Part shown: piece by piece, positions 7,408-55,719 of the stretch
Numbering within the stretch: position 1 is the stretch's first letter
How the letters are laid out: each line of letters begins with the position of its first letter
Program-made: the position numbers and the translations under genes
From: Kiritimatiellia bacterium
Lineage (GTDB): Bacteria > Verrucomicrobiota > Kiritimatiellia > JAKQHR01
Reading direction: 5' to 3'
DNA: 64,000 nt
NCBI GenBank assembly: GCA_050178035.1
Contig: JBFXGK010000014.1
Coordinates: forward strand, 8,649 to 72,648
Notes under the pieces: generated by a model
Database searches by the model: none
Seen by the model: only the letters and a program-made list of their open reading frames with translations
What the model was told of the DNA's origin: nothing

Positions 7408-9558
7408 CTATTCTTGCTGCTCGACCACGCGATAGAAAAGTATTATATCTTCACGTATTGGTTCAGATATCGAGTGGATGATGTTGGTAGCAAGTATATC
7501 AGAATAAATGTTTGTCCAATTAGAGGGGTTGAGTGATGTGGCATATTCCACATCATAAGTTTCTCCCGTAAAGGCGACCCATTCAAGCCTCAAGTCCGCT
7601 TCAGTCCGTATTAGGTCTATTGCCGGACGATCCATAAGTAGATGAACTGATTTCTTCGTATTCGTAAAAACAATGGGGTTGGCATAATATTCTGCTGTTG
7701 TTTCATCGAGGTCTACAGCACCATTCCCGTTTGCATCTAAAAAAGCAAATAGATAATAATTCTGATCACTTGTAAGATTTTGAAAGTTAAATGAGCCGGG
7801 GCCGGGAAGCACCACAACATTTGGATTTGGCCCCCAGCTCAATGCAACCATGTTAGGCGATTGAACTGGATAGGAAATCCGAGACAGTTCTCCGCCTGTT
7901 AATACATTTATTGTTTTAAGATATCTGTTGCCCGCATCGTAATCTGATGTAAATACACGCAATACTCCGTTTGGATCAAAATCAAGATCCCACATATCTC
8001 CACAACAACTCGGATTCGATACAAGTGCACTTGCCCCCGTCCATGAAACATTACCCACGGTTTTACTCAAATGATAGAGTCTTCCGGACCACTCATCACT
8101 GCACCAGAGCATCCCGTCCTCATCGATGTCATTGCCCAATATGCTTAACAATCCCGTCTGCTGGCCAGGATTGACATCTCTGGCAGTTAGCGCCACAGTG
8201 TCTATCTTCTTCAGAGTTCCTTGTGCTGTTGCAGTTTCTTCATTCACCGCATAAATAATATCGTTAGTATCAAAAGAAATAGATGTGAATTTCCCACTAA
8301 TTGAATGCCGCATAATAGATGATCCGGTGCTCCGATCAATCGAATATAATTGATTTGATACGCCAGCCACAGAGAGCCATAAATTTGCGTTGCGATCAAT
8401 ATCCATTGTTTTCAACCCGCTATGATTGACACCTATTGGGCCGACAGGATTTACCTCACCATTCACAGGATCAATGGTGACTAGATTTGTTGAGTTTTCG
8501 TCAATACTATACAGAGTCCAGTTTAGAGATGGCAACGAACCATTTGTTGTTAAAACAACCCAACACAATCCGGTAGATGCCCCTCCGTACAAGAACTCCC
8601 CATAAATTGATGCATTTGTAATATCAGGTATTACATTCCACGTGGCCGTTGCTGCGCTTGTAAAGTTTGAATAGTATTTATAGTAGGTTTCGACCCAATA
8701 ATAGTACCGTTGCCCAGTCATCACCGAACCGTCGTTATAAGAGAACATTCCTTTAACCCTCCAGGTTAATGATGTAGCAGTCGGTAAATTGCTTACAGTG
8801 TTTCTAAACACACGATAATATAAACCGGTAAATCCATTCCATGACAACAAGATGTTTGTTTCCACACCCTCTACGGCCTTAAAATCTGATGCTTTTGGCA
8901 CTGGGGCACGAACCTCCCATTGTGAAGGACTAAATTCACTTGTTCCATATTCAGTGCGCGCCTTAATCCAATACCAATATATTATCGACGGTTGAGCAGT
9001 ATAATCATTGTAGGTTGGTACTGTACATTCTCCAATTTTCACCGCTCCCGCAGGTTCGTTGATGGTACTCCGCCATACATCATATGCAACAAGCGGAACA
9101 CCCCCGCTCAACCAATACCATTCGAGTTCGATATGATCAGAATACGTACTTGAATAAAGATCATGCGGTGGTGCGGGTGTAGAATAATTGGTATTTCCCG
9201 AAGAAACATCGGCAAGAAAATATATGTAATACGCACCAGTATCAGGCGAATATGTCGCCTGTTTAATTTCTTCAGATACAAAAGTAGTGCCGTAATTGTC
9301 TGTAATTCTCAGTTTAAACCAAGCGGTTGCATTCACACCCGGACTTATATCCGGTTCACCTCTATATACACTTCTATCATAATCCTCATACAGCACCCAG
9401 TTGGCATTTACATTTTGATAATATAATTCCCAGTCCACACCAAGAGGAAACGGGTCTGGAATGCAATCAATCGAAATATGCGTGTATGCAAAAGATGATG
9501 ATCCCAGTAAAATATAGAAGAGGATTAACGGGCACCACCTTGCTTGAAACACCTTCAT
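7408..9558 (-). CDS. Large secreted protein (FN3-like repeats plus a beta-propeller-like region) encoded in a low-GC island. C-terminal FN3-like tail ending LFYRVVEQQE.
   Basis: The ORF is visibly AT-rich compared with its flanks. N-terminal hydrophobic signal (MKVFQARWCPLILFYILLGSSSFA). Rich in W and Y. No recognisable enzyme motif. Confidence 0.45.
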   Translation of the reverse strand: MKVFQARWCPLILFYILLGSSSFAYTHISIDCIPDPFPLGVDWELYYQNVNANWVLYEDYDRSVYRGEPDISPGVNATAWFKLRITDNYGTTFVSEEIKQATYSPDTGAYYIYFLADVSSGNTNYSTPAPPHDLYSSTYSDHIELEWYWLSGGVPLVAYDVWRSTINEPAGAVKIGECTVPTYNDYTAQPSIIYWYWIKARTEYGTSEFSPSQWEVRAPVPKASDFKAVEGVETNILLSWNGFTGLYYRVFRNTVSNLPTATSLTWRVKGMFSYNDGSVMTGQRYYYWVETYYKYYSNFTSAATATWNVIPDITNASIYGEFLYGGASTGLCWVVLTTNGSLPSLNWTLYSIDENSTNLVTIDPVNGEVNPVGPIGVNHSGLKTMDIDRNANLWLSVAGVSNQLYSIDRSTGSSIMRHSISGKFTSISFDTNDIIYAVNEETATAQGTLKKIDTVALTARDVNPGQQTGLLSILGNDIDEDGMLWCSDEWSGRLYHLSKTVGNVSWTGASALVSNPSCCGDMWDLDFDPNGVLRVFTSDYDAGNRYLKTINVLTGGELSRISYPVQSPNMVALSWGPNPNVVVLPGPGSFNFQNLTSDQNYYLFAFLDANGNGAVDLDETTAEYYANPIVFTNTKKSVHLLMDRPAIDLIRTEADLRLEWVAFTGETYDVEYATSLNPSNWTNIYSDILATNIIHSISEPIREDIILFYRVVEQQE

Positions 9559-9586
9559 AAGCCACCGATGATTATAATGCACGTGA

Positions 9587-43503: not shown

Positions 43504-46164
43504 CTATTTTGAGGCGTCTGTGTTAAAGCCGGAATTTTCAGCCTGGATCTGTCCCTGAGACAGTTCGCTCTTCAACTGCTCAACCGGACGCTGCTTCAAA
43601 TCCTCGATGGCCGCAGGGTCATTGCGCTGGGCCATGATCATCCAGCTCACTTTTGCGCCCGCAACGCCTCCGCCGACCACAAAGCGGTTCCCGCTGATTT
43701 CTTCCTTCACATACAGATTCATCTGCGCGCCCACGGGCGTCAGGAGATATTGCGGATTGATGTTCAGACGGTCGAAGTAAGCCGGAAGCTGCACAACGGC
43801 TTCACCATTTGCATCCAGCACTTCGGTTCCGTTGTAGATATTCTGGACCACCGGCCCCTCTGCGCAAAAATGCCGCAGCACTTTGTTTTCCGGGTCCAGC
43901 GGGTGATCAATGACAAAAGCTTTTGTGCTCCAGGCTCCAGTGCCGAATGTCTGGCGGTATTTGATGTTGGCATCCGCTGTACCGGTGCCGTCAATATAGA
44001 GCGTTCCGCGCACCGCCGTGCTGTTGTTATATAAATTAGTGATATTGTGCCCGATGGCAATGCGTTCGCTTCCATATGCTGTGCTGGCCCCGGCACCAAT
44101 GGCAATATTCGTGGAACTGGCCTGGGCTCCATATCCAATGGCCACGCCGGGACCAATGCCGGAATTTGCCGATCGGCCAACGGCAACGCCGCCGTTATAA
44201 CGCGCATTGGCACTGGGTCCCACTGCAACTCCACCACCATAATCGGCCATGGAACTGCTGCCGATGGCAACACCAGCATTGGAATGGACATTGGCCAAAT
44301 AGCCGATAGCTATGCCTGAGGCATGTGCATTGGCACCCCGTCCCACGGACACAGCATAACCATCCGCATTCGCGCCTGAGCCCAACGCCGTGGCGTTAGT
44401 AAGCGCAACAGCCTGATAGCCGACGGCCGTATCATACTGCTTCATAGCGCGGGCTTCAGATCCAATGGCCACAGACATGTTGGTTGCCTTGGCCAGATGA
44501 CCAATACCCACGGAGTAACTGAAACCTGTGGCGCCTGTGCCCATGGCGACGCCCCACCAGGCTCCATTGGCCGAGCTGCCCAGCGCAACCCCGCTCCATC
44601 CGTTCGCATCGTATCCGATCTCAATCGCACCACCCGGAGAGTTGGTGATGACAAGTTCGCCGCCGGCGCCGATATTGAATCCCAGAGCACCGGTCATCTG
44701 ATCGCCCGACACCTGAACATACTGCGATGGATCGCCAATGAGATTGCTCCAGCTTCCAGATCCAAAAGATGAGCGATAATAAATTCCCGTTCCGCCATCC
44801 AGATAAAGCGAACCGCGAATGGCGGCCGTATTGTTGATTGCGTTGGTGACATTGTGGCCAATGGCAATGCGTTCGCTTCCCGCACTGGCCCTTGCAGCCG
44901 CACCGATGGCAATGTTGGTTCTCGCACTGCTGAGGCTGAGGCTGTTGGCGGCGGCATCATTGATCGTCAGTGTGCCCGTCATGGTGTCGCCGGTTTTCTG
45001 CACAAAGCCTGTAGTTGAGCCGCCGCTGGCCAGCGCAGTCCACACCCCGCTTCCGAAGTTAGTGCGGAAATACACATTTGACCCGCCATCCAGAAACAGG
45101 GTGCCCCGCATGGCCACGGCGTTGTCCTGGGGAGTGGAAACCGCATGCCCGATGGCAATGCGCTCTGAACCCACGCCGGATGCCGCCATCCATCCGATGG
45201 CAATGTTGGTTGATGCTCCGCATGCGGAATTGCCGATGGCAATGCCGGTATTGTCGGCATCGGCAAATGCGCCGACCGCCACTCCGGCAAGAGATCCGTT
45301 AGCACTCCGGCCCACCGCCACTCCGGCGTTGTATCCATCGGCGGCTCTGCCGATGGCCGTGCCGTTGTTGCCCCCGTTGGCGTTTGCGCCCACCGCGGCG
45401 CCGGACCAGTAGCCGAAGGCGCCGTAGCCAAGGGCCGCGCCCATCTGGCTGCCATCCGCATAGGCGCCCACGGCGGCGCCCGTAATGCTTCCGTCACTGT
45501 TGTAGCCAACGCCCGCGCCGTAATCGGAACCGGCTGCCTGCGAACCAACGGCCACGCCCCGTGAGGACCCGTACGAGTTGTTGCCGACGCCCACGCCATA
45601 AGCCGATCCATTCGCCGTATTGCCGACCGTTGCCCCGTAATTGAAAGCATTGGCGTCAAATCCAACGGCTGCACCGTAGGAATTTCCGTTGGCGACATTG
45701 CCAACCATGACATCCTGCCCTGAGCTGGAGATAATCAAGTCGCTGCCGGCCCCGGCGTTCATGTGAAGCGGCCCGGTCATCGTGTCCCCGCTTTTCCGGA
45801 CGGCCGTGATGGCATAAGCCACCTGATTGATTTGCTCACGCGGAGACAGAGTGACACCGTTGACCGCCACCTCGATATAAACAATGGGATTCGTCAGTGC
45901 CGAATAAAGAGTGGGTGTCAGGGCGTTGATCCCAATCGTGGTTGAATAGAGTCCGTCCACGGCGGTTACCTTCTGGGTCTCGGCATATAGAAGCGTTCCG
46001 CCCGCGGAAGCATTATAAAGCCGAAAAACGTTGGTTACTGTACCGTTTACGAGATTCGTGCCAACAATCAGCCGACCCTGGTAATTGAACTTCGTATCGG
46101 TTTCCCCCGCATAAACAGCAGAAACCGCGAATGCGAGAAGAACTGCAAACATCAACCTCTTCAT
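43504..46164 (-). CDS. Giant secreted Gly/Ala-rich repeat protein (YadA-head-like NIAIG/ERIAIGH repeats). Adhesin or tail-fibre-like.
   Basis: Signal peptide MKRLMFAVLLAFAVSAVYA. Dozens of xAxGxxAxG repeats. Recurring TNIAIG(A/W)xAxx(A/G)SERIAIGH(N/A)(V/I)(S/T). Confidence 0.6.
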   Translation of the reverse strand: MKRLMFAVLLAFAVSAVYAGETDTKFNYQGRLIVGTNLVNGTVTNVFRLYNASAGGTLLYAETQKVTAVDGLYSTTIGINALTPTLYSALTNPIVYIEVAVNGVTLSPREQINQVAYAITAVRKSGDTMTGPLHMNAGAGSDLIISSSGQDVMVGNVANGNSYGAAVGFDANAFNYGATVGNTANGSAYGVGVGNNSYGSSRGVAVGSQAAGSDYGAGVGYNSDGSITGAAVGAYADGSQMGAALGYGAFGYWSGAAVGANANGGNNGTAIGRAADGYNAGVAVGRSANGSLAGVAVGAFADADNTGIAIGNSACGASTNIAIGWMAASGVGSERIAIGHAVSTPQDNAVAMRGTLFLDGGSNVYFRTNFGSGVWTALASGGSTTGFVQKTGDTMTGTLTINDAAANSLSLSSARTNIAIGAAARASAGSERIAIGHNVTNAINNTAAIRGSLYLDGGTGIYYRSSFGSGSWSNLIGDPSQYVQVSGDQMTGALGFNIGAGGELVITNSPGGAIEIGYDANGWSGVALGSSANGAWWGVAMGTGATGFSYSVGIGHLAKATNMSVAIGSEARAMKQYDTAVGYQAVALTNATALGSGANADGYAVSVGRGANAHASGIAIGYLANVHSNAGVAIGSSSMADYGGGVAVGPSANARYNGGVAVGRSANSGIGPGVAIGYGAQASSTNIAIGAGASTAYGSERIAIGHNITNLYNNSTAVRGTLYIDGTGTADANIKYRQTFGTGAWSTKAFVIDHPLDPENKVLRHFCAEGPVVQNIYNGTEVLDANGEAVVQLPAYFDRLNINPQYLLTPVGAQMNLYVKEEISGNRFVVGGGVAGAKVSWMIMAQRNDPAAIEDLKQRPVEQLKSELSQGQIQAENSGFNTDASK

Positions 46165-46390: not shown

Positions 46391-46450
46391 AAGGGGGAAA
46401 ACTGGTAGAGGCGCAGGGACTCGAACCCTGGACCCGCTGATTAAGAGTCA
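46391..46450. repeat. attL-type direct repeat: duplicated 3' 48 nt of tRNA-Lys plus about 10 nt downstream.
   Basis: 46403-46450 is identical to 55571-55618. The flanking GGGGAAAACTGG matches GGGGAAAAACTGG. Confidence 0.85.
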
Positions 46451-46537: not shown

Positions 46538-47899
46538 ATGGAACGCAATAGAGGAAAGGCGGCTAAAATGACACGGAAGCACCGGACCGGGAACTTATAC
46601 AGGCGGGGAAATGTTTGGTGGCTCAGGTACATGGTGGAGGGTAAAACCGTTTATGAATCCCTGCACTGCACCAGCCGGGATGATGCCGAGAAGGAGCGCA
46701 AGCGGATCATGCGCCCCTTGATGGCCGCCGACAAAGCCGACGTGCTGGCCAATATCTCAAAGCGACTGACCGACGCGAAGGACGAACAGGCCGCCGCCAA
46801 CGAGGAAGCCAATCCCCCGCTGGCAATCGCCGCCGCTTGGGATGCGTACTATGACAGCAAGAGCCGTCCCGATTCATCGGAGAGAACGCTGGCCGGATAT
46901 GAGAGCGCATGGAAAAGATTCAAGCGGTGGATCGAGAAGGAACACCCGGACATCAAACAGATGCGCGATGTTTCAAAGAACCTTGCCGCCGCTTACGCAA
47001 AAAAACTTGAAGCTGATGGAGTGACCGCCAGCACGTTCAACCAGCATATCGGGCTGATGCGTCTGGTATGGCGCACACTGGCAGAGGAGATTCGCGCAGG
47101 TTCAAACCCGTGGATGGACATGCGCCGGAAGAAACTCGGAGCGCAGAAGGTGGCGCACCGCCGCCGCAATCTGACACCTGAGCAATTTGATACCCTTCTA
47201 AAATGCGCTGGCAGTGCAGACATGCACGACCTTCTTTTTACTCTTGGATGGACTGGCCAGCGTCTCGCGGATATTGTTCTGTTGAAATGGAACTCAATAG
47301 ATTTCAAGCGTAAGGTTGTCACGATTCACCCGCTGAAATTGCGGCGCACAGGCAAGGAGGTTCATATTCCCCTGCTGCCACAGCTTGCGGATATTCTCAG
47401 AATGAGAAAGCGGAACGCCGCCGGGCCTCATGTGTTCCCCGAACTGGTGGAAGATTATCAGCGTGATCCGTCAGCACTGAGCAAGCGGATTGCCGCCGCC
47501 TTTGACAAGGCCGAACTGAACCCCCGCGAAAAACTGCCCGGAGTATCTAGGGCCGTTGTCGTTTATGGGGCGCATAGTCTGAGGCACTACTTCGCAACGC
47601 AAGCCCTTGCCGCAGGGATACCCTCCGAGATCGTGAAGCGAATCACCGGACACACCAGCGACACCATGCTTGCCAACTACGAGCATTTGGATGCGCGATT
47701 TATCGGAGAACTGGCGAACAAGCTACAGGCTCAACCACTGAACCCGCAGAAGCAAATCGCCGCACCGCCAGCGCATGAAGATAATCCCCTGCCCCCGTGG
47801 GCCGCGAAAATGATCGAGGGAATGACAGCAAAGAACTGGAAGAAAGTGAAAACCGAACTGCTCAAGATTCATGCGGAACCACAGGAGGCCGGACAATGA
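46538..47899 (+). CDS. int: Tyrosine site-specific integrase.
   Basis: C-terminal catalytic region HSLRHYFATQALAAGIP...ITGHTSDTMLANYEH (R, HxxR, Y). Confidence 0.85.
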   Translation: MERNRGKAAKMTRKHRTGNLYRRGNVWWLRYMVEGKTVYESLHCTSRDDAEKERKRIMRPLMAADKADVLANISKRLTDAKDEQAAANEEANPPLAIAAAWDAYYDSKSRPDSSERTLAGYESAWKRFKRWIEKEHPDIKQMRDVSKNLAAAYAKKLEADGVTASTFNQHIGLMRLVWRTLAEEIRAGSNPWMDMRRKKLGAQKVAHRRRNLTPEQFDTLLKCAGSADMHDLLFTLGWTGQRLADIVLLKWNSIDFKRKVVTIHPLKLRRTGKEVHIPLLPQLADILRMRKRNAAGPHVFPELVEDYQRDPSALSKRIAAAFDKAELNPREKLPGVSRAVVVYGAHSLRHYFATQALAAGIPSEIVKRITGHTSDTMLANYEHLDARFIGELANKLQAQPLNPQKQIAAPPAHEDNPLPPWAAKMIEGMTAKNWKKVKTELLKIHAEPQEAGQ

Positions 47900-48972
47900 A
47901 AAAGAAATCCTCACAGAACAAGAACCGCAAGCCCAAAAATATCAGCCTGTCTCTTGACTGCTTCGGGCTGTCAAACGCGGTGCATCCATATAGTGGAGAA
48001 GTTGGCGGGCAGGGAGAACAAGAGCGCATGAAGTGCAAGAAATGCGGCGGGCTGGCAATGTGGTACGGGGATGCAAATAACCCTGCCGCGCTGTATGTCA
48101 AATGCAAGAAATGCGGATGCCGCGAATATGATGTCGTGCCAAGAGAAGAGATTATTGATGATGGCGAAGGGGAGTTGAGAAAGCCACTGTCAAAAGCTGA
48201 TGCGAAGGCGGCGCGTGATGCCATATCGAAGGCAGAGGACAGCATGAGGGCGGCGCACAGCGTCTTGCTGAAATATGCCGGAAGCTCAGACTACGACATT
48301 GCCGCATATGCAATGCGCGTCCTGCTGAAAGAAACTCTTGCGCTTACTCAAAACGCGTCCGGTCTGTCTGGTGGAACAAATGCTGAGCTGGTGATGGCAA
48401 TCGCCGCGCAAAGTCATCATTGGCCTGTTATGGTGGGCATTCAACCCGAAAGCTGGAAGGCCGCAAGGAAACAAATCGAACGTATCGGACTTGGAACCAG
48501 AATCCCCATTGCTGAACAGTACCGCAACAAGAAAGCATTCAAACCTGATCGAGCCACAAACGCCATTGCATGGGAGATACTGCAAACAATTATAAAGACC
48601 CGCGCCGAGGTTCAGCAGTACGACCGGAACACCCTCAAGCATGGCCGCCTGAACGGCGAACCTGTGCCGGAATGGGTTTGCCTTTGTCGGGATCTGCCAG
48701 CACTGACACCCGATAAGAATATCCTGAAAGATTACCGCGATCTTGCCCGAAAGCACATTGCCACCATGAAAGCAAAAAGAGTTTCCAAGCATGAAACCGC
48801 TTTTGAGCTTCTTCTGCGAACCGCCGCCCCTGAATGGTTTGATTCCATTTGGGGCCGATGCACTGACGAGACAAGCCGGAAGAAAAGCAATCGCACTACT
48901 CGCGGCGCACTTCGTAAAAATGCCGAGGATGATATTCTGTCCGCACTGGTCACGATAGCAAAGAACCTTTGA
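47896..48972 (+). CDS. Hypothetical protein with an N-terminal C4 zinc ribbon. Translationally coupled to int (ATGA).
   Basis: CKKCGG...CKKCGC motif. No other recognisable domain. Confidence 0.4.
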   Translation: MKKKSSQNKNRKPKNISLSLDCFGLSNAVHPYSGEVGGQGEQERMKCKKCGGLAMWYGDANNPAALYVKCKKCGCREYDVVPREEIIDDGEGELRKPLSKADAKAARDAISKAEDSMRAAHSVLLKYAGSSDYDIAAYAMRVLLKETLALTQNASGLSGGTNAELVMAIAAQSHHWPVMVGIQPESWKAARKQIERIGLGTRIPIAEQYRNKKAFKPDRATNAIAWEILQTIIKTRAEVQQYDRNTLKHGRLNGEPVPEWVCLCRDLPALTPDKNILKDYRDLARKHIATMKAKRVSKHETAFELLLRTAAPEWFDSIWGRCTDETSRKKSNRTTRGALRKNAEDDILSALVTIAKNL

Positions 48973-49096
48973 CCCGTTTCCGCTGGTGAAAAAACAGGGG
49001 GCATTTTCACCCCTGCACCTCATTAGGACTTTTTGCGCCTATCCCATATTTTTCCCGCAGTGAGATTGTGAGTCTCAAAACACAGAAAGGGAAAAT

Positions 49097-49372
49097 ATGA
49101 GCAACAACATTGAACTTGCGCGACTGGCCGTTGCGGGACTGACGGCAAAGGATAGGGCCGTCCTGCTGAAAGACTTAACCCCGGCACAGCCGACCGAACA
49201 GCGACTTGTCCGGCGCAGGGAGGCCGCCCGTCTGCTGGCGTGTTCTGTGCGAACCATAGACCACTACGTCGAGAAGGGACTGCTTCGGCGCGTATCGGTT
49301 CCGGGGCTTAGCCGAGCAATCGGATTCAGACTGGCCGACGTTCAGGCAGTCATTGACGGGCGGGCCGCGTGA
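49097..49372 (+). CDS. AlpA/excisionase-like MerR-type HTH DNA-binding protein.
   Basis: RREAARLLACSVRTIDHYVEKGLL..GFRLADVQAVI. Confidence 0.6.
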   Translation: MSNNIELARLAVAGLTAKDRAVLLKDLTPAQPTEQRLVRRREAARLLACSVRTIDHYVEKGLLRRVSVPGLSRAIGFRLADVQAVIDGRAA

Positions 49373-49656
49373 CTGCCGCCACGTTATCCACGAAAGCCCA
49401 TGAAGGCCGTTCGTGGGATCAAAAACGTGAGGAGGAGCTTCAAAGAGTCAATGACGAAGCCCCCTCATGCCTAAAGACCTTCAAAGCCGCTTTTGGTGGG
49501 AAATCCCTTCGCGCCGGAATCAATGCTATGTGCCTTCAATGCACCTGCTTTGACCGTCTCTACATTCGGGACTGTCCCTCATCGAACTGCGGCTTGTGGC
49601 GTTATCGCCCGTTTCAAAAAATGAAGGGCCGGAGCCAGAAGGAGAGCAACCCATGA
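49369..49656 (+). CDS. Small Cys-rich hypothetical protein.
   Basis: Overlapping start. CLQCTCFDRLYIRDCPSSNC. Confidence 0.3.
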   Translation: MTAATLSTKAHEGRSWDQKREEELQRVNDEAPSCLKTFKAAFGGKSLRAGINAMCLQCTCFDRLYIRDCPSSNCGLWRYRPFQKMKGRSQKESNP

Positions 49657-49844
49657 AAGCGCATTGCCACATTTGCCAGCGCGAGACAGAAACCGCAATC
49701 CTTCAGCTTCGTGGTGGACTTGGAAATTGTTGCTCAGTCTGCCGAACCTGCCGGAAGGGAAAACCGTACTTCTCGAAGTCTGAAGTTTCAGCACTAACGG
49801 CCAAAGGCCAGAGGGTGGAACATGAACAGCACGAAATCCGATAA
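49653..49844 (+). CDS. Small zinc-ribbon protein.
   Basis: CHICQRE...CCSVCRTC. ATGA overlap. Confidence 0.3.
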   Translation: MKAHCHICQRETETAILQLRGGLGNCCSVCRTCRKGKPYFSKSEVSALTAKGQRVEHEQHEIR

Positions 49845-51081
49845 CCGCCCGACCAACTTTGACGGAATCACCGTCTCAATGGTTGCGAACTGCCAGCGCA
49901 CAAAAACCAGCGACGTTTCCTTTATGGCGGTGCTAAACGATATTCAGGCTGGCCGCTGGCGCGAAAAAGTTGAGGCCGTTCGTGAAGCTCAGTTGCAACA
50001 CGGAAAGCCTGCCGCCGATGCCCTAAAGAAGAAACTGCCCGCCGTTCTTTTCAGTGGAAAGTTTTCCCGGCGCGACAACGCTCACTTGCTGGAACACTCC
50101 GGCTTTATATGTGCCGATCTGGACGACTTGAACAGTGCATTGAGCCGGATACGCCAGCGCGTCGAAAGCGATCCGCACACCTTCGCTTGCTTCCTATCGC
50201 CCAGGGGAAACGGGCTGAAGGTTCTCTATCGCGTCCCGGCAAGCACTGATAACCACAAGGCGGCATGGAATCGCGTCGCGGCATACATTCGCGAGAACTA
50301 CAGCGTCGAGACAGACCCGACGTGCAAGGAAGTTGCCCGGCTGTGCTTCGTTTCCTTTGACCCCCATCTATATCTGAAACATGAGGCTGAAAACATCAAG
50401 TGTGATACAGAGGATACAGCACACACAGACAATTCAGCATATCCAGCAAATTCATGCCATGTGGGGGAGAAGGGAGTTGCCCCCAGCGCCCCCCGCCCCC
50501 CCACAACCGAAAAGGGGGCTATATTAGCTGTATCACACTCGGAGAAGGTGCAGCAGATCATCTTGCAGACTCAACCGAGCTTTGGAGGACAGCGGAATAA
50601 AAAGGTCTTGAATCTTGCACGCGGCCTGAAACTCGATGCCGGGCTAAGTGATGCGCCAAAATCCGAACTGAAAAAAATTGTCCGCGAATGGTTCCGGCTG
50701 GCACTTCCTCATATCAAGACCAAAGATTTTACGGAAACTTGGGCTGACTTTGTTTACGCATGGGATCGTGTTCGCACACCACTTTCAGAAGGGGCCATTA
50801 TTTCTGCTTGGCACCGAGTTGAAAGCGAACCGTTGCCGGAAGTGTGCGAGGCATACGCTGACAATGAGCGGGCAAGCCGCTTGTTGGCTCTCTGCTGGCA
50901 CCTGAAACGACAAGACGGCACCTTTTACCTGTCTATGCCACAGGCCGCGAAACTGCTCAAGATGCACCCTCATCAAGTTTTGCGGTTTTTGAAAATGTTT
51001 CGCGCCGACGGACTGTTTAGCATAATCGAAAAGGGCCAGTTGGAAAAAAGAAAAGCAACGCTGTACAGGTGGACGAAATGA
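49822..51081 (+). CDS. Replication/primase-associated protein (VirE-N / BT4734-like N-terminal domain).
   Basis: LPAVLFSGKFSRRDNAHLLEHSGFICADLDDL...FLSPRGNGLKVLYRV pattern, typical of VirE-N domains of phage/ICE primases. Confidence 0.45.
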   Translation: MNSTKSDNRPTNFDGITVSMVANCQRTKTSDVSFMAVLNDIQAGRWREKVEAVREAQLQHGKPAADALKKKLPAVLFSGKFSRRDNAHLLEHSGFICADLDDLNSALSRIRQRVESDPHTFACFLSPRGNGLKVLYRVPASTDNHKAAWNRVAAYIRENYSVETDPTCKEVARLCFVSFDPHLYLKHEAENIKCDTEDTAHTDNSAYPANSCHVGEKGVAPSAPRPPTTEKGAILAVSHSEKVQQIILQTQPSFGGQRNKKVLNLARGLKLDAGLSDAPKSELKKIVREWFRLALPHIKTKDFTETWADFVYAWDRVRTPLSEGAIISAWHRVESEPLPEVCEAYADNERASRLLALCWHLKRQDGTFYLSMPQAAKLLKMHPHQVLRFLKMFRADGLFSIIEKGQLEKRKATLYRWTK

Positions 51082-51566
51082 CCGCGCCGCCTGTGCTGAA
51101 CATCGTTTGCGATTCCAGAGAGCAACTGCCCTTTGCCTTCGCTGGCTATCCCGTGGAAGTGACAACCGGAACCCTGGAGGCCGGGGACTACAGCCTATCG
51201 GGATTCACGCGGCGCATTGCCATAGAGAGAAAAGCCCTGTCCGATCTGGTTGGCTGTCTGGGCGGTGAACGTGACCGCTTCGAGAGAGAGCTTGCAAGGC
51301 TCCGGGGTTATGACTTCGCCGCCGTCGTAGTCGAAGCCCCTGCCGAACTGCTGCAACAGGGGCGGTATCTTGGCAAACTGGATTGCAAGGCCGCATGGCA
51401 AAGCGTTCTGGCGTTCAGTCAGCGATATAGATTGCCGTTCTACTTTTGCCGGGACAGGGACGAAGCCGAAGCGGTTTGCTTAGACCTTTTGCGGCATTAT
51501 GCCCGTGACCGCTGGAAAGAACTTCGGGCTTTAACAGACAAACCAAAACAGAAAGGATCAATATGA
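51069..51566 (+). CDS. ERCC4-type (XPF/Mus81-like) nuclease.
   Basis: CDSREQ...GDYSLSG...IERKALSDLVGC matches the ERCC4 signature (GDx(n)ERKx3D). Confidence 0.55.
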   Translation: MDEMTAPPVLNIVCDSREQLPFAFAGYPVEVTTGTLEAGDYSLSGFTRRIAIERKALSDLVGCLGGERDRFERELARLRGYDFAAVVVEAPAELLQQGRYLGKLDCKAAWQSVLAFSQRYRLPFYFCRDRDEAEAVCLDLLRHYARDRWKELRALTDKPKQKGSI

Positions 51567-52177
51567 CCACCGAGAAAACCACGAACAACACCCCGCTTGA
51601 CCCGTCACAGCCGCTATCAAATGCCCGCTATGAAACTATGTGCGAGTTACGGGTTAATGATATGCCTCAGCATGAGTGCTATTCAAAGACAGCAGACAGG
51701 CGGATTAAAAAGAAAACCGCTATGGTTAGAGCGTCTGAAATCTTTTCCCGCCCCGACGTTCGGGCGCGTTTGAATTTCTTACGTTATGAAGCGATAAAGG
51801 CCAGCCAGCAACCGCCCGCGCCCTTCATGCAAACAATTCGGGATCAACTGGACGGGAAAGCCCCACTGTCCAGCGGCGACATGATGGAGCTTGCCCGTAA
51901 AAAGGCAGAACAGGCTTTAGCATTGGCCGAGACTCCGCAAGATGTTGTGAAGGCGGTTCAGGTCTGCCGTGATTTAGGCGTGATAACTTCGGGAGACAGC
52001 GACGACGTAGACCCCACCGCCGTTTTAAGATATGTTCTTTCATGCGCTGGCAAGGACGGCCAAACGATTGTCAGGGAGCTTGGCGGGTTGCGGTTTATGG
52101 TGGACTCATTCTGTGACATTTGCAAGGTCAGCCTGGACGATCTACACGAGATCACGAGGCCAGCGGTCAAAGAGTAG
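51563..52177 (+). CDS. Terminase small-subunit-like protein.
   Basis: ECYSKTADRRIKKKTAMVRASEIFSRPDVRARLNFL resembles the TerS pattern (AGYSxKTA...A..L...P.V...I). Confidence 0.4.
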   Translation: MTTEKTTNNTPLDPSQPLSNARYETMCELRVNDMPQHECYSKTADRRIKKKTAMVRASEIFSRPDVRARLNFLRYEAIKASQQPPAPFMQTIRDQLDGKAPLSSGDMMELARKKAEQALALAETPQDVVKAVQVCRDLGVITSGDSDDVDPTAVLRYVLSCAGKDGQTIVRELGGLRFMVDSFCDICKVSLDDLHEITRPAVKE

Positions 52178-52761
52178 ACATAATCGGCATTATTAACGAC
52201 ATGCCATAAAACCCCAATAAAACCGCATGTTTTTTCGGGTAGTATTTTTGAACCACCGTGTTTTTTGTCGTTTGCATAATTATGTCCGTTGAAAACCGTC
52301 CGCATTTTGAGGCGGTGGGGCGATATGCAACCGCCCGGCTTGCCCTTGCCCTATGTGGTTTGACAGTGTAGAACGTTCATAATTGCCGCGCCTGTGCTCG
52401 CAACAGGATCACACCAGCAGAGAGATCGAGGCGCAACGTGTGAGGATTTGGGAACGGATAGAAGCGGGCCGCATACCTTCAAGCGTTACAGGCAAGACAC
52501 CAGCACAGCGTCAGCGTGTCGTCGTCGGCGGTGTTCATCATCGTGGACACAGGACAATCATTGTCATTCAATAGACACCCCCCGGAGGGGGCTGCCAGCA
52601 CTCTTGATATATATATATGCCCCGTTCCCGAAAATTTAAAAATTGACAAAATGTGTCACACATAAAAGCGAGGATAACGCGTTGCAGTTGACAATAACAA
52701 ATGCAGGTGGCCCGACAAACTGACGTGCGCTGTCAAAACTATTTTCCAGCCCCGGTTTCGG

Positions 52762-53382
52762 CTAGTAGAACCGGCGAGGGCTGGAGGTGGCGGCGGGTGT
52801 TTGCTTTTTCTCTTTTGGGGGCTGAACGGGAGGAAGCCTTTCCCGCCTGTTTATACGAACAGGTTTTCCCTCGACGTGTCCCATCCATTGTCCATACCCA
52901 TCATCTTCTAAATATTCATAGAAACTTTCTGGGTAGCCCAGCCGCAGCGCACTATATTCAATGCGGCATTTTGAAAGATCATCTTTAAAGCGGATGTCTA
53001 TAATTCTGACATCATCTGTTTGTCGTTTGAGTTCCCAATATTCCGGCATTCTATACAATGGATTCATCAACAGAATCACCTTTACGGCTACGACAATGAT
53101 CACCAATGCAGCTGGGATGATCCATATCAGCGATCTTCTTTTGAAAAGTCGTTTAGTGATGATTTTTGCCTGTCCTTCTCGCGAAATGGGAACTTCTATT
53201 TTCTCTTGTGGAGAACCCGTTCCCGTCGGAGGTTGTGGAATCGTGATAAGCTGGCCGCAAGCGGGACATTTTATACTTTCACCAACCATATCTCCGGGGG
53301 CTTCCATACTCTGTTTGCAACGCGGGCAATTGAAATTCACTTCTGTCATGTTCATCTCCAGTGCATGGTTTGCATTCGTCAA
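52762..53382 (-). CDS. Zinc-ribbon membrane protein (cargo gene 3). Paralogous N-terminus to 54301-55089.
   Basis: FNCPRCKQSMEAPGDMVGESIKCPACGQLITIP, then one TM helix and a C-terminal domain. Lower GC than the host. Confidence 0.45.
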   Translation of the reverse strand: MTNANHALEMNMTEVNFNCPRCKQSMEAPGDMVGESIKCPACGQLITIPQPPTGTGSPQEKIEVPISREGQAKIITKRLFKRRSLIWIIPAALVIIVVAVKVILLMNPLYRMPEYWELKRQTDDVRIIDIRFKDDLSKCRIEYSALRLGYPESFYEYLEDDGYGQWMGHVEGKPVRINRRERLPPVQPPKEKKQTPAATSSPRRFY

Positions 53383-53478
53383 TGCTATATCCCGTGCTTG
53401 AGTCCGGCAACTGTTTCATTCGTGATGCAACACACTTTCGGCCGGTATATTATGCGCCTTATCTTTATATGGCGGTCG

Positions 53479-54240
53479 TTACCAAGAATATGATGAACGG
53501 CCGCCCATCCTTGTGATCCAACTTGTGCCGACTGCCGTCAATACTGGGCCGGTTTCTTTTGCGCCATATTCATTTACCAGTGTCCCCGTTGATACAAGAA
53601 CATACAAAGAACTAGGAGGAGACTTGCCCCCTTTTTTATACCATTTGTGGCCGATGTCGGCAGGAATCAACACGACCGCAACAGTCACACCCGAGCCATA
53701 ATTCGCGGAATAGTATTCCTTGGATTCTTGACGGGCATTGGCGCGGGGGAAACCGATCTTGATTACCTTCCCTTCCAAATCAAACATATTTCTATATATG
53801 TCGGCCCCGGTGTAGGTTTTATTGCTTGAGGGCGGAGGCACCTTGCTAGATGTTTCTGATGAACTGCTATCGGTCTGGTCGCTTGAATCACCAGCACTTG
53901 CCTCCGCAGACTCAAACTGTTTTGCGCGCTTTTCTAAATCGGTTGGCTGCGATTGAACCTTTTTCAAGTATGCCGCCTGTGCCTGCGAAGACTGTCGTGA
54001 ATAAGCCGCTGCCTTCTGCGGATCATATCCATATTTCTTTTGTATCTCCTCCGGCAACTCCCAAAATGGAATCTTAGCGATGCCGCCTGCGTGGGAGAAG
54101 GAAATGCCATCGGGTTCGACCCGTGTGATTCTGGCATTTATATAGGTCTTGCCTTTTGATGTTGTGATGTCCTCGGCGGGAATGGAAAGAGCGGCAAATA
54201 GCGAAATAATAATGCCAAATAGTGTATTCTGTATCTTCAT
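53479..54240 (-). CDS. Secreted Ser-rich hypothetical protein (cargo gene 2).
   Basis: Signal peptide MKIQNTLFGIIISLFAALSIPA. Low-complexity S/Q-rich linker. Confidence 0.4.
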   Translation of the reverse strand: MKIQNTLFGIIISLFAALSIPAEDITTSKGKTYINARITRVEPDGISFSHAGGIAKIPFWELPEEIQKKYGYDPQKAAAYSRQSSQAQAAYLKKVQSQPTDLEKRAKQFESAEASAGDSSDQTDSSSSETSSKVPPPSSNKTYTGADIYRNMFDLEGKVIKIGFPRANARQESKEYYSANYGSGVTVAVVLIPADIGHKWYKKGGKSPPSSLYVLVSTGTLVNEYGAKETGPVLTAVGTSWITRMGGRSSYSW

Positions 54241-54300
54241 AGCCGATCTCCTAAAATGACGAACACCTTTCCATACAGCAGCCCATGAGAAACTATGTTG

Positions 54301-55089
54301 CTATTGTGATATTAGACCCAGGAATAGAAAGAACAGCAAAATACCGCCGATGACCATTACCCCAAGACAAGAGCAGGATGAATTCTTGCTCCTATCGTCA
54401 CTCCCGGCAACTCCAGATTCTATTAGCTTTTCTCTGTATGCGAGAGCCTGTTCAATCATGCTGCTTGCTTGTCCTATCCCAAGAGTGGATAAGACTGTCT
54501 GATCTTTAAATCCAAGAGCGATCAGATAATCAATTTGTTTTTGCGTTGCAGGTCTTTCATTTGGTTCACGTTTAGGGCATTTCAATTTACGACTCAAATC
54601 AGGGGCATATTCGCCCTGTAGCTTTTCTTTCCGATAACCCCGATCAAGTTCTCCCATCTCCTTTAGATATGACGCCCTAATTAATGATGGAAAGAATTCT
54701 GTAATCACATCTTCAAGAAAATATTCATCCGCGCATAATTGTTCTGCATGTTCCTCGACATATTGAAAAATCTTCTTTTTCTTGGCCTCAGATATGTTCT
54801 TAACCACCTCATTGGCATATAGGTCGTAAAGGGAAGCTTCGTAGTCATTTTTGAAATCGACCACATATTTACTGACAGCGGGCTTACGGGTTTTCTCGAT
54901 TGCGGGTGGTTTCTTCGGTGCTTTCTTTTTGCGTGTTCTGGGTGAATCGGCATCAGGCTTCTGCTGTTCTGGAATACTAATAGACTGCTTGCACGTTGGG
55001 CATTCAATATATTCCCCCGCCATCTCCGGCGGCGCTTCTAGGGGCTGCTGGCAATGGGGACAACCAAAAGCAATATCAGTCATTCTCAT
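54301..55089 (-). CDS. Zinc-ribbon protein with a C-terminal TM anchor (cargo gene 1).
   Basis: FGCPHCQQPLEAPPEMAGEYIECPTCKQSISIP. C-terminal LGVMVIGGILLFFLFLGLI. Confidence 0.45.
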   Translation of the reverse strand: MRMTDIAFGCPHCQQPLEAPPEMAGEYIECPTCKQSISIPEQQKPDADSPRTRKKKAPKKPPAIEKTRKPAVSKYVVDFKNDYEASLYDLYANEVVKNISEAKKKKIFQYVEEHAEQLCADEYFLEDVITEFFPSLIRASYLKEMGELDRGYRKEKLQGEYAPDLSRKLKCPKREPNERPATQKQIDYLIALGFKDQTVLSTLGIGQASSMIEQALAYREKLIESGVAGSDDRSKNSSCSCLGVMVIGGILLFFLFLGLISQ

Positions 55090-55352
55090 TTCCTCCCGTA
55101 TGCGGCTTGCATGAAAAGGATGCTAGACCCGCCCCCATTATGCAGTCAAGCCGAACATTCAACGTGAAAGAGAGGACCGGGAATAGAATCCGCTCGTTGA
55201 CCCATCGAGAGAAACCGAAGAACTCCCCGAAGTAATGGTATGACCGCCCCCGCCCCGCTTTGTGTCAGGGATGGCCGAGACGGGCCGCCGTGACCGCCAG
55301 AAACGACAATCACCCCCAGAGAGGTATCAACACCCTACCCGCTCCCCGGCCT

Positions 55353-55452
55353 CATTTGGGACATCATTTGAGACACTGCCATACCCGCTGACTACACGCT
55401 GAATCTTTCGGACTGTCCTAAACTGTCTCAAATGTAAAAGGATTTTGAGACA
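55353..55452. promoter_or_regulatory. Cluster of four CATTTGRGACA motifs (three direct, one inverted), near attR. Candidate integrase arm-type sites or cargo-operon operator.
   Basis: Motif copies at 55353, 55365, 55424 (inverted) and 55442. The same motif (CTGTCTCAAAA) occurs at 46488-46498 near attL. Confidence 0.55.
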
Positions 55453-55570
55453 TATCCGCGAAAAGCCATTGAGAGCAAAAAAAGGCAACAAGGGCAAATG
55501 GCGATATTCGTTTGACTATTGCAAATATTGATCGAAATACAGTTTTTCCCACTGTGTTCATTGGGGAAAA

Positions 55571-55646
<76 letters not shown>

Positions 55647-55719
55647 CCACCAAAAGGATGCAAATTAGTACCGCAAGACGCCGCGTGTGGCAATCCCGCA
55701 AATCATTTTTTTTTGATTT

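What the first reader, a model, noticed from the sequence alone, without database searches (positions are those of the whole stretch)
52762..55089. Low-GC three-gene cargo module of paralogous zinc-ribbon membrane proteins at the variable end of the satellite-like element: candidate novel defence or exclusion system
The operon runs from the tRNA-proximal end inward, on the minus strand. It encodes three proteins:
- A 262-aa protein with N-terminal C4 zinc ribbon FGCPHCQQPLEAPPEMAGEYIECPTCKQSISIP, a Lys-rich linker, a globular middle and a C-terminal TM anchor.
- A 253-aa secreted Ser/Gln-rich protein.
- A 206-aa protein with paralogous zinc ribbon FNCPRCKQSMEAPGDMVGESIKCPACGQLITIP, then a TM helix and an extracytoplasmic domain.
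The GC is visibly lower than in both the host and the rest of the element. No known-domain match is evident.
In PICIs and P4-like satellites this position is a hotspot for anti-phage systems.
One zinc-ribbon protein is anchored at its C-terminus and the other is followed by a TM helix. Together with a secreted partner, this suggests a membrane-associated sensor/effector trio (abortive infection or superinfection exclusion), not DNA metabolism.
Basis: inference. Interest (0 to 1): 0.7.

Follow-up and report, generated by a model that had tools for sequence, protein, structure and literature searches.

The report
Shuffled membrane-protein cargo of integrative element
Three real but uncharacterised envelope-protein genes sit in the swappable cargo slot of a small mobile element in a Kiritimatiellia genome; they are independent, reshuffled cassettes and not a fixed three-part system, and only the first belongs to a recurrent family found in defence-island-like company.

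Summary
Three intact minus-strand genes with Shine-Dalgarno sites lie at 52762-55089. Their GC is 45.9%, against 54.0% for the element core and 58.5% for the host. They lie inside a 9.2-kb tRNA-Lys integrative element bounded by a 53-bp direct repeat.

- A is a tail-anchored protein with a cytoplasmic zinc ribbon.
- B is an exported protein with an SH3-like barrel.
- C is a zinc ribbon-TM-ectodomain protein.
- None matches Pfam, NCBIfam, PHROGs, PADLOC, PDB or phage records above threshold.

The "sensor/effector trio" reading is not supported. Sister elements at the same tRNA-Lys carry C alone, C'+B'+a 112-aa gene, or A'+B'+the 112-aa gene, in a different order. A full-length B homolog occurs elsewhere without zinc-ribbon partners. 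A and C share only their first 39 residues. That zinc ribbon is a generic, often tandem module found in at least 1395 protein clusters.

A defence or exclusion role is plausible for A but only circumstantial. Interest is moderate.

The parts
55573..55648 (-). tRNA-Lys(CTT), integration target of the element
   Evidence: ARAGORN; Rfam tRNA 72.5 bits
55568..55620 (.). att direct repeat, tRNA-side copy (53 bp)
   Evidence: Exact 53-bp repeat with 46398-46450; also present in L001/L005/L006
46398..46450 (.). att direct repeat, integrase-side copy (partial tRNA 3' end)
55090..55567 (-). Conserved leader between the tRNA and gene A. Holds a tandem TCATTTGRGACA pair (55352-55375) plus an inverted copy (55424-55435), probably recombinase arm sites. 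Also holds one sigma70-like promoter match (55149-55120).
   Evidence: 81-88% identical in sister elements from 55296 outward; repeats; promoter scan. Function is inferred.
54301..55083 (-). Gene A (260 aa; maximal ORF runs to 55089). Layout: ZitP/GltJ-like zinc ribbon (aa 1-38), disordered Lys-rich linker, helical domain (aa 68-154), EYAP and ATxKQxxYLxxLG..QASxLI motifs (aa 155-227), C-terminal TM (aa 239-260).
53479..54240 (-). Gene B (253 aa). Layout: signal peptide, SH3/SHD1-like barrel (aa 23-75), helical linker, Ser-rich spacer, unmodelled C-terminal domain (aa ~135-253).
52762..53349 (-). Gene C (195 aa; maximal ORF runs to 53382). Layout: zinc ribbon (aa 1-38), linker, TM (aa 74-97, N-in), small variable ectodomain (aa 98-195). 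Carries its own conserved upstream region, 53350-53435.
52163..52659 (.). Conserved non-coding block that bounds the cargo slot on the core side
   Evidence: 87% identical to L006/L007 directly downstream of their C-type gene; no Rfam match; only weak repeats
46538..52177 (+). Element core: integrase 46538-47899; second variable gene about 47900-48972; excisionase/MerR-like 49097-49372; 95-aa Cys-rich ORF 49369-49656; BT4734-type primase 49822-51081; ERCC4 nuclease 51069-51566; 204-aa unknown 51563-52177

Best explanation
Shown: the three genes are independently shuffled accessory cassettes, not one system. They occupy the tRNA-proximal cargo slot of a 9.2-kb integrative, self-replicating element in a Kiritimatiellia chromosome. 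Each protein combines a conserved 'address' module with a faster-evolving or swappable domain.

- A: a cytoplasmic ZitP/GltJ-like zinc ribbon, a flexible Lys-rich linker, a conserved helical domain of a previously undescribed family, and a C-terminal membrane anchor. All of its functional parts face the cytoplasm at the inner membrane.
- B: a Sec signal, an SH3/SHD1-like barrel, a helical linker and a variable C-terminal domain, located in the periplasm.
- C: the same zinc ribbon, a TM helix and a small variable periplasmic domain.

Inferred: the genes are expressed from the integrated element, like lysogenic-conversion genes. The zinc ribbon would recruit a cytoplasmic host or invader protein to the membrane, as it does in ZitP and GltJ. 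The variable domains would then act at the envelope.

The most likely benefit is protection of the host-element pair against incoming phages or other mobile elements, either by superinfection-exclusion-type blocking or by membrane-associated abortive infection. A is the strongest single-gene candidate. B and C are more likely stand-alone envelope modifiers.

The confidence of 0.5 is a composite. I put about 0.85 on the architectural and evolutionary part (independent cassettes in a variable slot, module identities) and about 0.35 on the defence/exclusion function.
For: Element and slot:
- att repeats and core genes.
- Mosaic comparison with sister elements shows conserved core, leader and N-terminal coding parts but swapped gene content, gene order and C-terminal domains.
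- C has its own conserved upstream block, joined directly to the leader in L005 and L006.

The genes are functional:
- Intact ORFs with Shine-Dalgarno motifs.
- dN/dS of 0.18-0.38 in the conserved parts, against 0.22 for the primase.

Module identities:
- AF2 model of A, mean pLDDT 87.9.
- ZitP and GltJ zinc ribbons are protein-interaction modules of membrane proteins (PMC5182065, PMC11135422).

Context of the A family:
- Same tRNA-proximal position in an unrelated tRNA-Gly element with a DnaG-type primase and AAA_25 helicase, followed by a lipoprotein and a small TM protein.
- One gene in an array of genes each followed by a ~215-nt repeat, together with ParE, Mrr_N, DUF3800 and integrases.
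- Directly downstream of a DUF2971 protein that matches PADLOC PDC-S31 at E 1.5e-24.
- Beside HipA/HTH and Unstab_antitox genes.
- Adjacent to a B-module protein in an independent locus.

Att-proximal hotspots of P2/P4-type elements are known reservoirs of anti-phage genes (PMC9122126).
Against: - None of the three proteins matches any PADLOC model, even at E<=1.
- There are no homologs in phage records, IMG/VR contigs or plasmids.
- No enzymatic or effector domain was found.
- The context evidence is anecdotal: seven loci and no enrichment statistic. PDC systems are themselves unvalidated candidates.
- B's C-terminal domain and C's ectodomain remain structurally uncharacterised.
- The A' copy in L001 has lost the family's most conserved motif. 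This could mean the gene is dispensable.
- Expression and co-transcription were not measured.
Confidence: 0.5

Rival explanations
1. Non-defence conversion genes. The proteins are envelope or cell-organisation modifiers. They would be ZitP/GltJ-like adaptors that hook host cytoplasmic scaffolds to the membrane, plus periplasmic structural proteins. They would change host surface, adhesion, polarity or envelope physiology to the benefit of host or element, with no role in phage or MGE conflict.
For: - The zinc ribbon resembles the ZitP finger. It is a generic module in at least 1395 clusters, with no link to defence domains.
- The B-type module is widespread in ordinary secreted proteins with diverse C-termini, including Lpp-like alanine zippers and hydrolases.
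- The full-length B homolog sits among other secreted proteins and not in an element.
- ZitP and GltJ act in polarity, pili and motility (PMC5182065, PMC11135422).
Against: - A-family genes recur on mobile elements and next to TA or candidate-defence genes, not in conserved envelope operons.
- Presence/absence and domain swapping between near-identical elements is more typical of conflict genes. It is not exclusive to them.
Confidence: 0.3
2. A, B and C form one obligate three-component, membrane-associated sensor/effector defence system (abortive infection or exclusion), encoded as an operon.
For: - The three genes are co-directional and closely spaced, and together span both faces of the inner membrane.
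- An A-type and a B-type gene are adjacent in the window, in L001 and, independently, in L012.
- The unrelated element L020 has an analogous order: A-family gene, exported protein, TM protein.
Against: - The trio is found only in this window.
- Sister elements carry C alone, C'+B'+112 aa or A'+B'+112 aa, with B on the other side of C.
- A full-length B homolog occurs without zinc-ribbon partners.
- A-family genes mostly occur alone.
- The L020 partners are not homologous to B or C.
- C has its own conserved upstream region.
- There are no PADLOC hits.
Confidence: 0.08
3. Element-intrinsic function. The proteins serve the element's own life cycle. Examples are membrane tethering of the excised replicon, interference with or hijacking of a helper phage, or help with transfer.
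For: - An A-family gene occupies the first position after the att site in two unrelated replicative integrative elements.
- The sister element's 203-aa protein gives a faint small-terminase-like hint (Terminase_2, E 0.009, below the cut-off).
Against: - A is absent from sister elements L005 and L006 and is internally deleted in L001, so it is dispensable for the element.
- A-family genes also occur outside elements.
- The conserved motif lacks basic residues expected for DNA binding.
- No packaging or transfer genes were identified.
Confidence: 0.1
4. Polymorphic toxin-immunity or lysis cassette. B would be an exported toxin with a swappable C-terminal toxin domain and a downstream immunity gene. 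Alternatively, the set would be a holin/spanin-like lysis module.
For: B-family proteins have a conserved N-terminal module and highly variable C-terminal domains. C has an i-spanin-like N-in/C-out topology.
Against: - There are no toxin, endolysin or secretion-system domains.
- B has only a Sec signal and no Cys, so it is neither an o-spanin nor a lipoprotein.
- The gene following the same B C-terminal domain differs between the window (C) and L002 (an unrelated 339-aa protein), so there is no co-varying immunity partner.
Confidence: 0.03

Closest known systems
ZitP (Caulobacter) and GltJ/AgmX (Myxococcus): bitopic membrane proteins with an N-terminal cytoplasmic zinc ribbon
   Same: - An N-terminal four-Cys, two-hairpin zinc ribbon followed by a flexible linker and a membrane anchor.
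- C has the same ZnR-linker-TM-periplasmic domain order as ZitP.
- In both models the ribbon is a protein-protein interaction module (PMC5182065, PMC11135422).
   Different: - Neither Pfam Zn_ribbon_4 nor Zn_ribbon_5 matches above threshold (best E 0.22).
- There is no DUF3426 or GYF domain.
- A is tail-anchored with a novel helical domain.
- The genes are mobile-element cargo in a PVC bacterium, not core polarity or motility genes.
- The partner is unknown.
Variable anti-phage hotspots of P2 prophages / P4 satellites and PICIs (Rousset et al. 2022, PMC9122126; de Sousa et al. 2023, PMC10085698)
   Same: A small integrase-bearing element in a tRNA gene. It has a conserved core and a low-GC slot whose gene content changes between otherwise similar copies.
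   Different: - The element has a BT4734-type primase and an ERCC4 nuclease.
- No recognised capsid-redirection or packaging genes were found.
- No known defence gene was seen in the slot in any of the four copies.
- Helper dependence is unknown.
Prophage superinfection-exclusion and moron membrane proteins (for example HK97 gp15, P22 SieA, T4 Imm/Sp, TP-J34 Ltp, T5 Llp); recalled from general knowledge, not tested here
   Same: Small inner-membrane or periplasmic proteins without enzymatic domains, encoded as accessory genes near att or module boundaries of integrated elements. C has the N-in/C-out bitopic topology reported for gp15-type proteins.
   Different: There is no sequence or fold relationship. 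The cytoplasmic zinc ribbon and A's tail-anchored architecture have no counterpart in those proteins. Function is untested.
Sla1 homology domain 1 (SHD1) / SH3-like small barrels
   Different: 9% identity. No Pfam SHD1 match. The B module is bacterial and periplasmic, and is followed by coiled coil and variable domains. The next best hits are Hfq/Sm barrels, so the resemblance is generic.

Membership tests
Known or candidate anti-phage defence systems (PADLOC-DB v2) | Significant match of at least one protein to a PADLOC HMM | tested here: not met
   0 families for A, B and C at E<=1. The element's other unknown genes also give none.
ZitP/GltJ-type zinc-ribbon membrane adaptors | N-terminal four-Cys, two-hairpin zinc ribbon on the cytoplasmic side of a membrane protein | tested here: met
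ZitP/GltJ-type zinc-ribbon membrane adaptors | Pfam zinc_ribbon_4/5 (PF13717/PF13719) membership of the ribbon | tested here: not met
   PF13717 E 0.22, 11.9 bits against a cut-off of 30.3. PF13719 is not listed.
ZitP/GltJ-type zinc-ribbon membrane adaptors | Periplasmic DUF3426 domain (ZitP, GltJ) or cytoplasmic GYF domain (GltJ) | tested here: not met
   No such Pfam match in A or C or in the A family.
ZitP/GltJ-type zinc-ribbon membrane adaptors | Direct binding of the ribbon to a cytoplasmic partner (PopZ, MglB) | not testable with these tools
   Needs pull-down, two-hybrid or AF-multimer against the host proteome.
Phage satellites (P4-like, PICI, cfPICI, PLE) | Integrase plus own replication module in a small element at a tRNA or att site | tested here: met
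   Integrase PF00589, 66 bits; BT4734-like primase, 96 bits; excisionase-like HTH; 53-bp att repeat.
Phage satellites (P4-like, PICI, cfPICI, PLE) | Genes for hijacking helper packaging or capsid (TerS-like, Sid/Psu/Delta, Cpm, capsid homologs) | tested here: inconclusive
   No PHROGs or Pfam hit for the 204-aa protein. Its L005 homolog hits Terminase_2 only at E 0.009, 17.1 bits against a cut-off of 26.1.
Phage satellites (P4-like, PICI, cfPICI, PLE) | Induction and packaging dependent on a helper phage | not testable with these tools
   Requires experiment, or discovery of the helper.
Phage lysis cassette (holin-endolysin-spanin) | Endolysin domain and an outer-membrane lipoprotein o-spanin with a lipobox Cys | tested here: not met
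   No muramidase, amidase or peptidase domain. B contains no cysteine.
SHD1 domain family (PF03983) | Sequence match to the Pfam model; SH3-like barrel fold | tested here: inconclusive
Conserved multi-gene system (operon-level family A+B+C) | Co-occurrence and conserved order of the three families across independent loci | tested here: not met
   The trio was seen only in the window. Other loci carry subsets in a different order, or single genes.

The most novel reading that the evidence does not exclude
The A family would be a new, structurally unprecedented, single-gene anti-phage or anti-MGE determinant of PVC-type bacteria. Its layout is zinc ribbon or another N-terminal adaptor, a helical domain, EYAP and ATxKQxxYLxxLG..QASxLI motifs, and a tail anchor. 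It would be carried in the att-proximal slot of several unrelated integrative elements and in cassette arrays. The widespread ZitP-like zinc ribbon would serve as a reusable module that brings an invader or host protein to the inner membrane. B- and C-type cassettes would be a companion repertoire of exclusion factors that diversify by C-terminal domain swapping.
Probability: 0.2. Interest if true: 0.7.

Novelty: new variant of a known kind. Interest (0 to 1): 0.45.

Why it matters
Almost nothing is known about mobile elements, phage satellites or immunity in Kiritimatiellia and related PVC bacteria.

This locus gives a cleanly bounded small integrative element with two variable slots. It also gives a set of cassette-like envelope proteins that are reshuffled between near-identical copies.

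The A family has no sequence or structural relative. It recurs as cargo on unrelated elements and near toxin-antitoxin or candidate-defence genes, so it is a concrete and testable candidate for a new membrane-anchored conflict gene.

The very abundant ZitP-like zinc ribbon of these phyla is also worth studying as a general membrane-recruitment module. If the genes turn out to be ordinary envelope modifiers, the finding is a routine example of accessory cargo.

Tried and rejected
1. Known-family assignment: Pfam, NCBIfam, PHROGs, PADLOC and PDB sequence searches gave nothing above threshold.
2. Phage, plasmid and viral-contig relatives: none. The A5 alignment was too divergent for a viral scan.
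3. Widening the element sample:
   - The genome collection gave only a distant Bacteroidaceae primase.
   - The metagenome scan gave two partial copies lacking the cargo end.
4. Rosetta-stone idea: the extra C-terminal domain of A-family member P0106 is not a B-type module (hhalign probability 0.3%).
5. Homology of the L020 lipoprotein to B or C: none. The parallel with the window is therefore only architectural.
6. Fold searches:
   - The AFDB50 library was unavailable.
   - B's C-terminal domain could not be modelled (pLDDT below 50).
7. Lysis-cassette and polymorphic-toxin readings were rejected. There is no endolysin or toxin domain, B has no Cys, and there is no co-varying downstream partner.
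8. ncRNA in the leader or in the conserved non-coding block: no Rfam match other than the tRNA.
9. Intrinsic terminators and promoters: only weak consensus matches, not informative for a PVC host.
10. A GYF-like N-terminus in P0122, seen by eye, was not confirmed by Pfam.
Full report
**Observation**

The quoted zinc-ribbon strings are exact.

The NCBI annotation of the identical MAG proteins (Kiritimatiellia bacterium, AB7T27_09640/35/30) and the homologs place the starts at MTDIAF (A, 260 aa) and MTEVNF (C, 195 aa). Each start is preceded by GGGAGGA, AGGAG or GGAG at proper spacing.

Hydropathy analysis gives the following topologies:
- A has a single C-terminal TM at aa 239-260.
- B has an N-terminal signal-peptide-like segment and no cysteine.
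- C has a TM at aa 74-97 preceded by KRLFKRRS, so it is N-in with an ectodomain of about 98 aa.

GC is 45.9% for the cargo, 54.0% for the element core and 58.5% for the host flanks. GC3 is 0.40-0.49 for the cargo, against 0.58-0.72 elsewhere.

**The element**

tRNA-Lys(CTT) lies at 55573-55648. A 53-bp exact direct repeat, 46398-46450 = 55568-55620, copies its 3' part. Between the two repeats lie:
- a tyrosine integrase;
- a variable 391-aa gene;
- an excisionase/MerR-like HTH protein;
- a 95-aa Cys-rich ORF;
- a BT4734-type primase;
- an ERCC4 nuclease;
- a 204-aa unknown protein;
- the three cargo genes.

This is a 9.2-kb integrative element with its own replication module. No packaging or capsid-redirection gene was recognised. 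The sister copy of the 204-aa protein reaches Terminase_2 only below threshold (E 0.009, 17 bits against a cut-off of 26). 'Satellite-like' therefore remains a hypothesis.

**No known family**

- Pfam, NCBIfam, PHROGs and PADLOC give nothing above cut-off for A, B or C. Only generic zinc-ribbon noise appears.
- PDB sequence searches, single and profile, are empty.
- tblastn against 50,697 phage records and 72,556 plasmids finds nothing.
- Scans of IMG/VR with the three family alignments find no relative.

**Comparative anatomy: not a trio**

Word-indexed searches of 5.8 billion proteins gave very few homologs:
- one for A (P0002);
- one full-length homolog for B (P0004), plus about 35 hits to its N-terminal 35-40% only;
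- two for C (P0042, P0043).

The contigs carrying the A and C homologs hold the same aminotransferase-tRNA-Lys junction with sister elements. The cargo differs between copies:

| Locus | Cargo next to tRNA-Lys |
|---|---|
| Window | A, B, C |
| L001 | A' (197 aa), B' (281 aa, different coiled-coil C-terminus), a 112-aa exported protein |
| L005 | C' (larger ectodomain), B', the 112-aa gene, then the same core |
| L006 / L007 | C'' alone, followed directly by the 52163-52659-like block |

blastn of the window against the sister elements shows conservation in these stretches:

| Window stretch | Identity | Sister locus |
|---|---|---|
| 47057-47910 (core) | 96% | L005 |
| 49077-51524 (core) | 87% | L005 |
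| Leader from 55296 outward | 81-88% | L001, L005, L006, L007 |
| 53030-53435 (5' half of C plus 85 bp upstream) | 84% | L005, L006, L007 |
| 54011-54192 (5' part of B) | 84-88% | L001, L005 |
| 52163-52659 (non-coding block) | 87% | L006, L007 |

Everything else in the slot is replaced.

Relative to L006, the window has a 1.86-kb A+B module inserted between the leader and C's own upstream region. Relative to L005, B lies on the other side of C.

The full-length B homolog P0004 (56% identity) lies beside a radical-SAM/SPASM gene among other secreted proteins, with no zinc-ribbon partner.

The genes are therefore independent cassettes with their own regulatory regions. They are not a conserved operon.

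They are not decaying. dN/dS in the conserved parts is 0.18-0.38, against 0.22 for the primase and 0.09 for the aminotransferase. The C-terminal and ectodomain parts are diverged to saturation.

**The zinc ribbon**

A and C share only residues 1-39 (54% identity, E 1e-13).

An exhaustive phmmer search of 1.84 billion representatives with A found 1395 clusters at E<=1e-3. Most of them match aa 1-60 only. Among 135 of the best hits:
- the module occurs in 1-9 tandem copies;
- it is usually N-terminal;
- about half of the carriers have TM segments.

Pfam sees only generic zinc-ribbon families plus occasional Sel1 or TM2 in these proteins. The four Cys are invariant.

ZitP has a ZnR-TM-DUF3426 architecture, and its ribbon binds PopZ (PMC5182065). 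The structurally similar GltJ ribbon binds MglB and an intramolecular linker (PMC11135422). The ribbon is therefore best read as a generic protein-recruitment module at the membrane, not as a signature of a defence system. Pfam membership in PF13717 or PF13719 and the DUF3426 domain were tested and not met.

**Protein A defines a new family**

The same search recovered at least 13 further clusters that match aa ~71-253 of A. Their alignment (A5) gives this layout:
- an optional N-terminal zinc ribbon;
- a helical domain with FPxL(I/L)T;
- G(E/K)YAP;
- ExxATxKQxxYLxxLGxxD...LGxxQASxLI;
- a C-terminal TM.

P132 is invariant. E176, A179, T180, Q183, L190, G191, G202, A206 and I210 are nearly invariant (present in at least 90% of members).

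The copy in L001 has lost aa 156-229, which is the most conserved motif of the family.

**Contexts of the A family**

| Locus | Member | Context |
|---|---|---|
| L020 / L021 | P0146 | tRNA-Gly, then the A-family gene, a 201-aa lipoprotein, an 81-aa TM protein, an AAA_25 helicase, a DnaG-type primase and an integrase |
| L013 (1.1-Mb contig) | P0044 | One gene in an array in which genes are each followed by a ~215-nt repeat (5 copies), with a DDE transposase, DUF3800 (weak PDC-M04A match), ParE, Mrr_N and two integrases |
| L014 | P0045 | Directly downstream of a DUF2971 protein that matches PADLOC PDC-S31 (E 1.5e-24) |
| L017 | P0106 | Next to Unstab_antitox and DUF2513 |
| L018 / L019 | P0122 | Next to HipA and an HTH protein |
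| L012 | P0046 | Adjacent to a secreted protein with the B-type module (49% identity over 74 aa) |

The L020 element is unrelated to the window's. Its primase shows no similarity, and its integrase is 29% identical to the window's over the aligned catalytic region. Its partners are not homologous to B or C.

The A family is therefore a mobile accessory gene that keeps defence-island-like company. This rests on seven loci without statistics, and PDC systems are themselves unvalidated candidates. No paper mentions PDC-S31.

**Protein B**

Family members carry diverse C-termini, including an alanine zipper, an OB fold and hydrolases. B therefore looks like a periplasmic protein with a binding or anchoring module and a swappable C-terminal domain.

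**Protein C**

Its zinc ribbon, linker, TM and juxtamembrane NPLYRMPEYWEL are highly conserved among the three members. The ectodomain is variable and carries an insertion in P0042.

**Interpretation**

Shown:
- a bounded integrative element;
- a variable att-proximal slot;
- three functional, independently shuffled genes encoding envelope-associated proteins built from conserved address modules and variable domains;
- a new family for A.

Inferred: expression from the integrated element, recruitment of a cytoplasmic partner by the ribbon, and action at the envelope. The most likely benefit is exclusion of, or abortive response to, incoming phages or MGEs. This is by analogy with the att-proximal hotspots of P2/P4-type elements (PMC9122126) and from the A-family contexts.

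I put the functional (defence/exclusion) part of this reading at about 0.35. My probabilities for the rivals are:
- non-defence envelope or polarity modifiers: about 0.3;
- element-intrinsic function: about 0.1;
- the obligate trio model: about 0.08;
- toxin-immunity or lysis cassette: about 0.03.

**Verdict**

The arrangement is a known kind (variable cargo of an integrative element) carrying novel protein families. Interest is moderate. The main value lies in the A family as a testable candidate and in the cassette-like domain shuffling in a poorly studied phylum.

Noticed in passing
window 47910-49077: A second variable slot lies directly after the integrase. The window has a 391-aa ORF with a CxxC...CxxC motif and no family match (Lar_restr_allev only at E 0.065). 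L005 has an unrelated 338-aa gene there. L010 has the window's allele, with a small indel.
   Followed up: partly
window 52163-52659: A 500-bp block without a convincing ORF is 87% identical to the sequence directly downstream of the C-type gene in L006 and L007. It bounds the cargo slot. There is no Rfam match and only weak repeats. It may be an ori, a pac site or a regulatory region.
   Followed up: partly
window 55352-55375 and 55424-55435: A tandem pair TCATTTGGGACA/TCATTTGAGACA plus an inverted copy lies in the leader next to the tRNA. There are 3 matches in the window against 0.76 expected by chance. These are probably integrase or excisionase arm sites.
   Followed up: partly
window 7408-9582 (-): A separate low-GC island (43-46%) consists of a single 724-aa secreted protein with a DUF4394 match (E 6.6e-9).
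   Followed up: partly
window 43504-46164 (-): An 886-aa secreted protein full of Gly/Ala-rich repeats lies just outside the integrase-side att repeat. It has no Pfam match. The corresponding flank in L010 does not align to the window.
   Followed up: no
L013 1-16597: Co-directional single genes are each followed by a ~215-nt repeat (5 copies, 68-96% identical to the reference copy). There is also a duplicated 183-aa + 110-aa gene pair, and two tyrosine recombinases at one end. This is an integron-like or other cassette array, and it carries an A-family gene.
   Followed up: partly
L020 5394-12289 and L021: An unrelated integrative element in tRNA-Gly (integrase, DnaG-type primase, AAA_25 helicase) has an att-proximal slot that reads A-family gene, 201-aa lipoprotein, 81-aa TM protein. 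This mirrors the window's layout without any homology of the partners to B or C.
   Followed up: yes
L001 8275-8862 (P0002): The A' copy in the sister element has an in-frame deletion of aa 156-229. This removes the EYAP and ATxKQ...QASxLI motifs, which are the most conserved part of the family.
   Followed up: partly
P0047-P0191 (hits): The ZitP-like zinc ribbon occurs as 2-9 tandem copies in many proteins that have no other recognisable domain. This suggests an avidity or scaffolding role for the module in these bacteria.
   Followed up: partly
L002 4857-5861: The locus with the full-length B homolog holds a further secreted protein. By eye, its N-terminus looks like another small-barrel module. 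The neighbourhood is a cluster of exported proteins next to a radical-SAM/SPASM gene.
   Followed up: no
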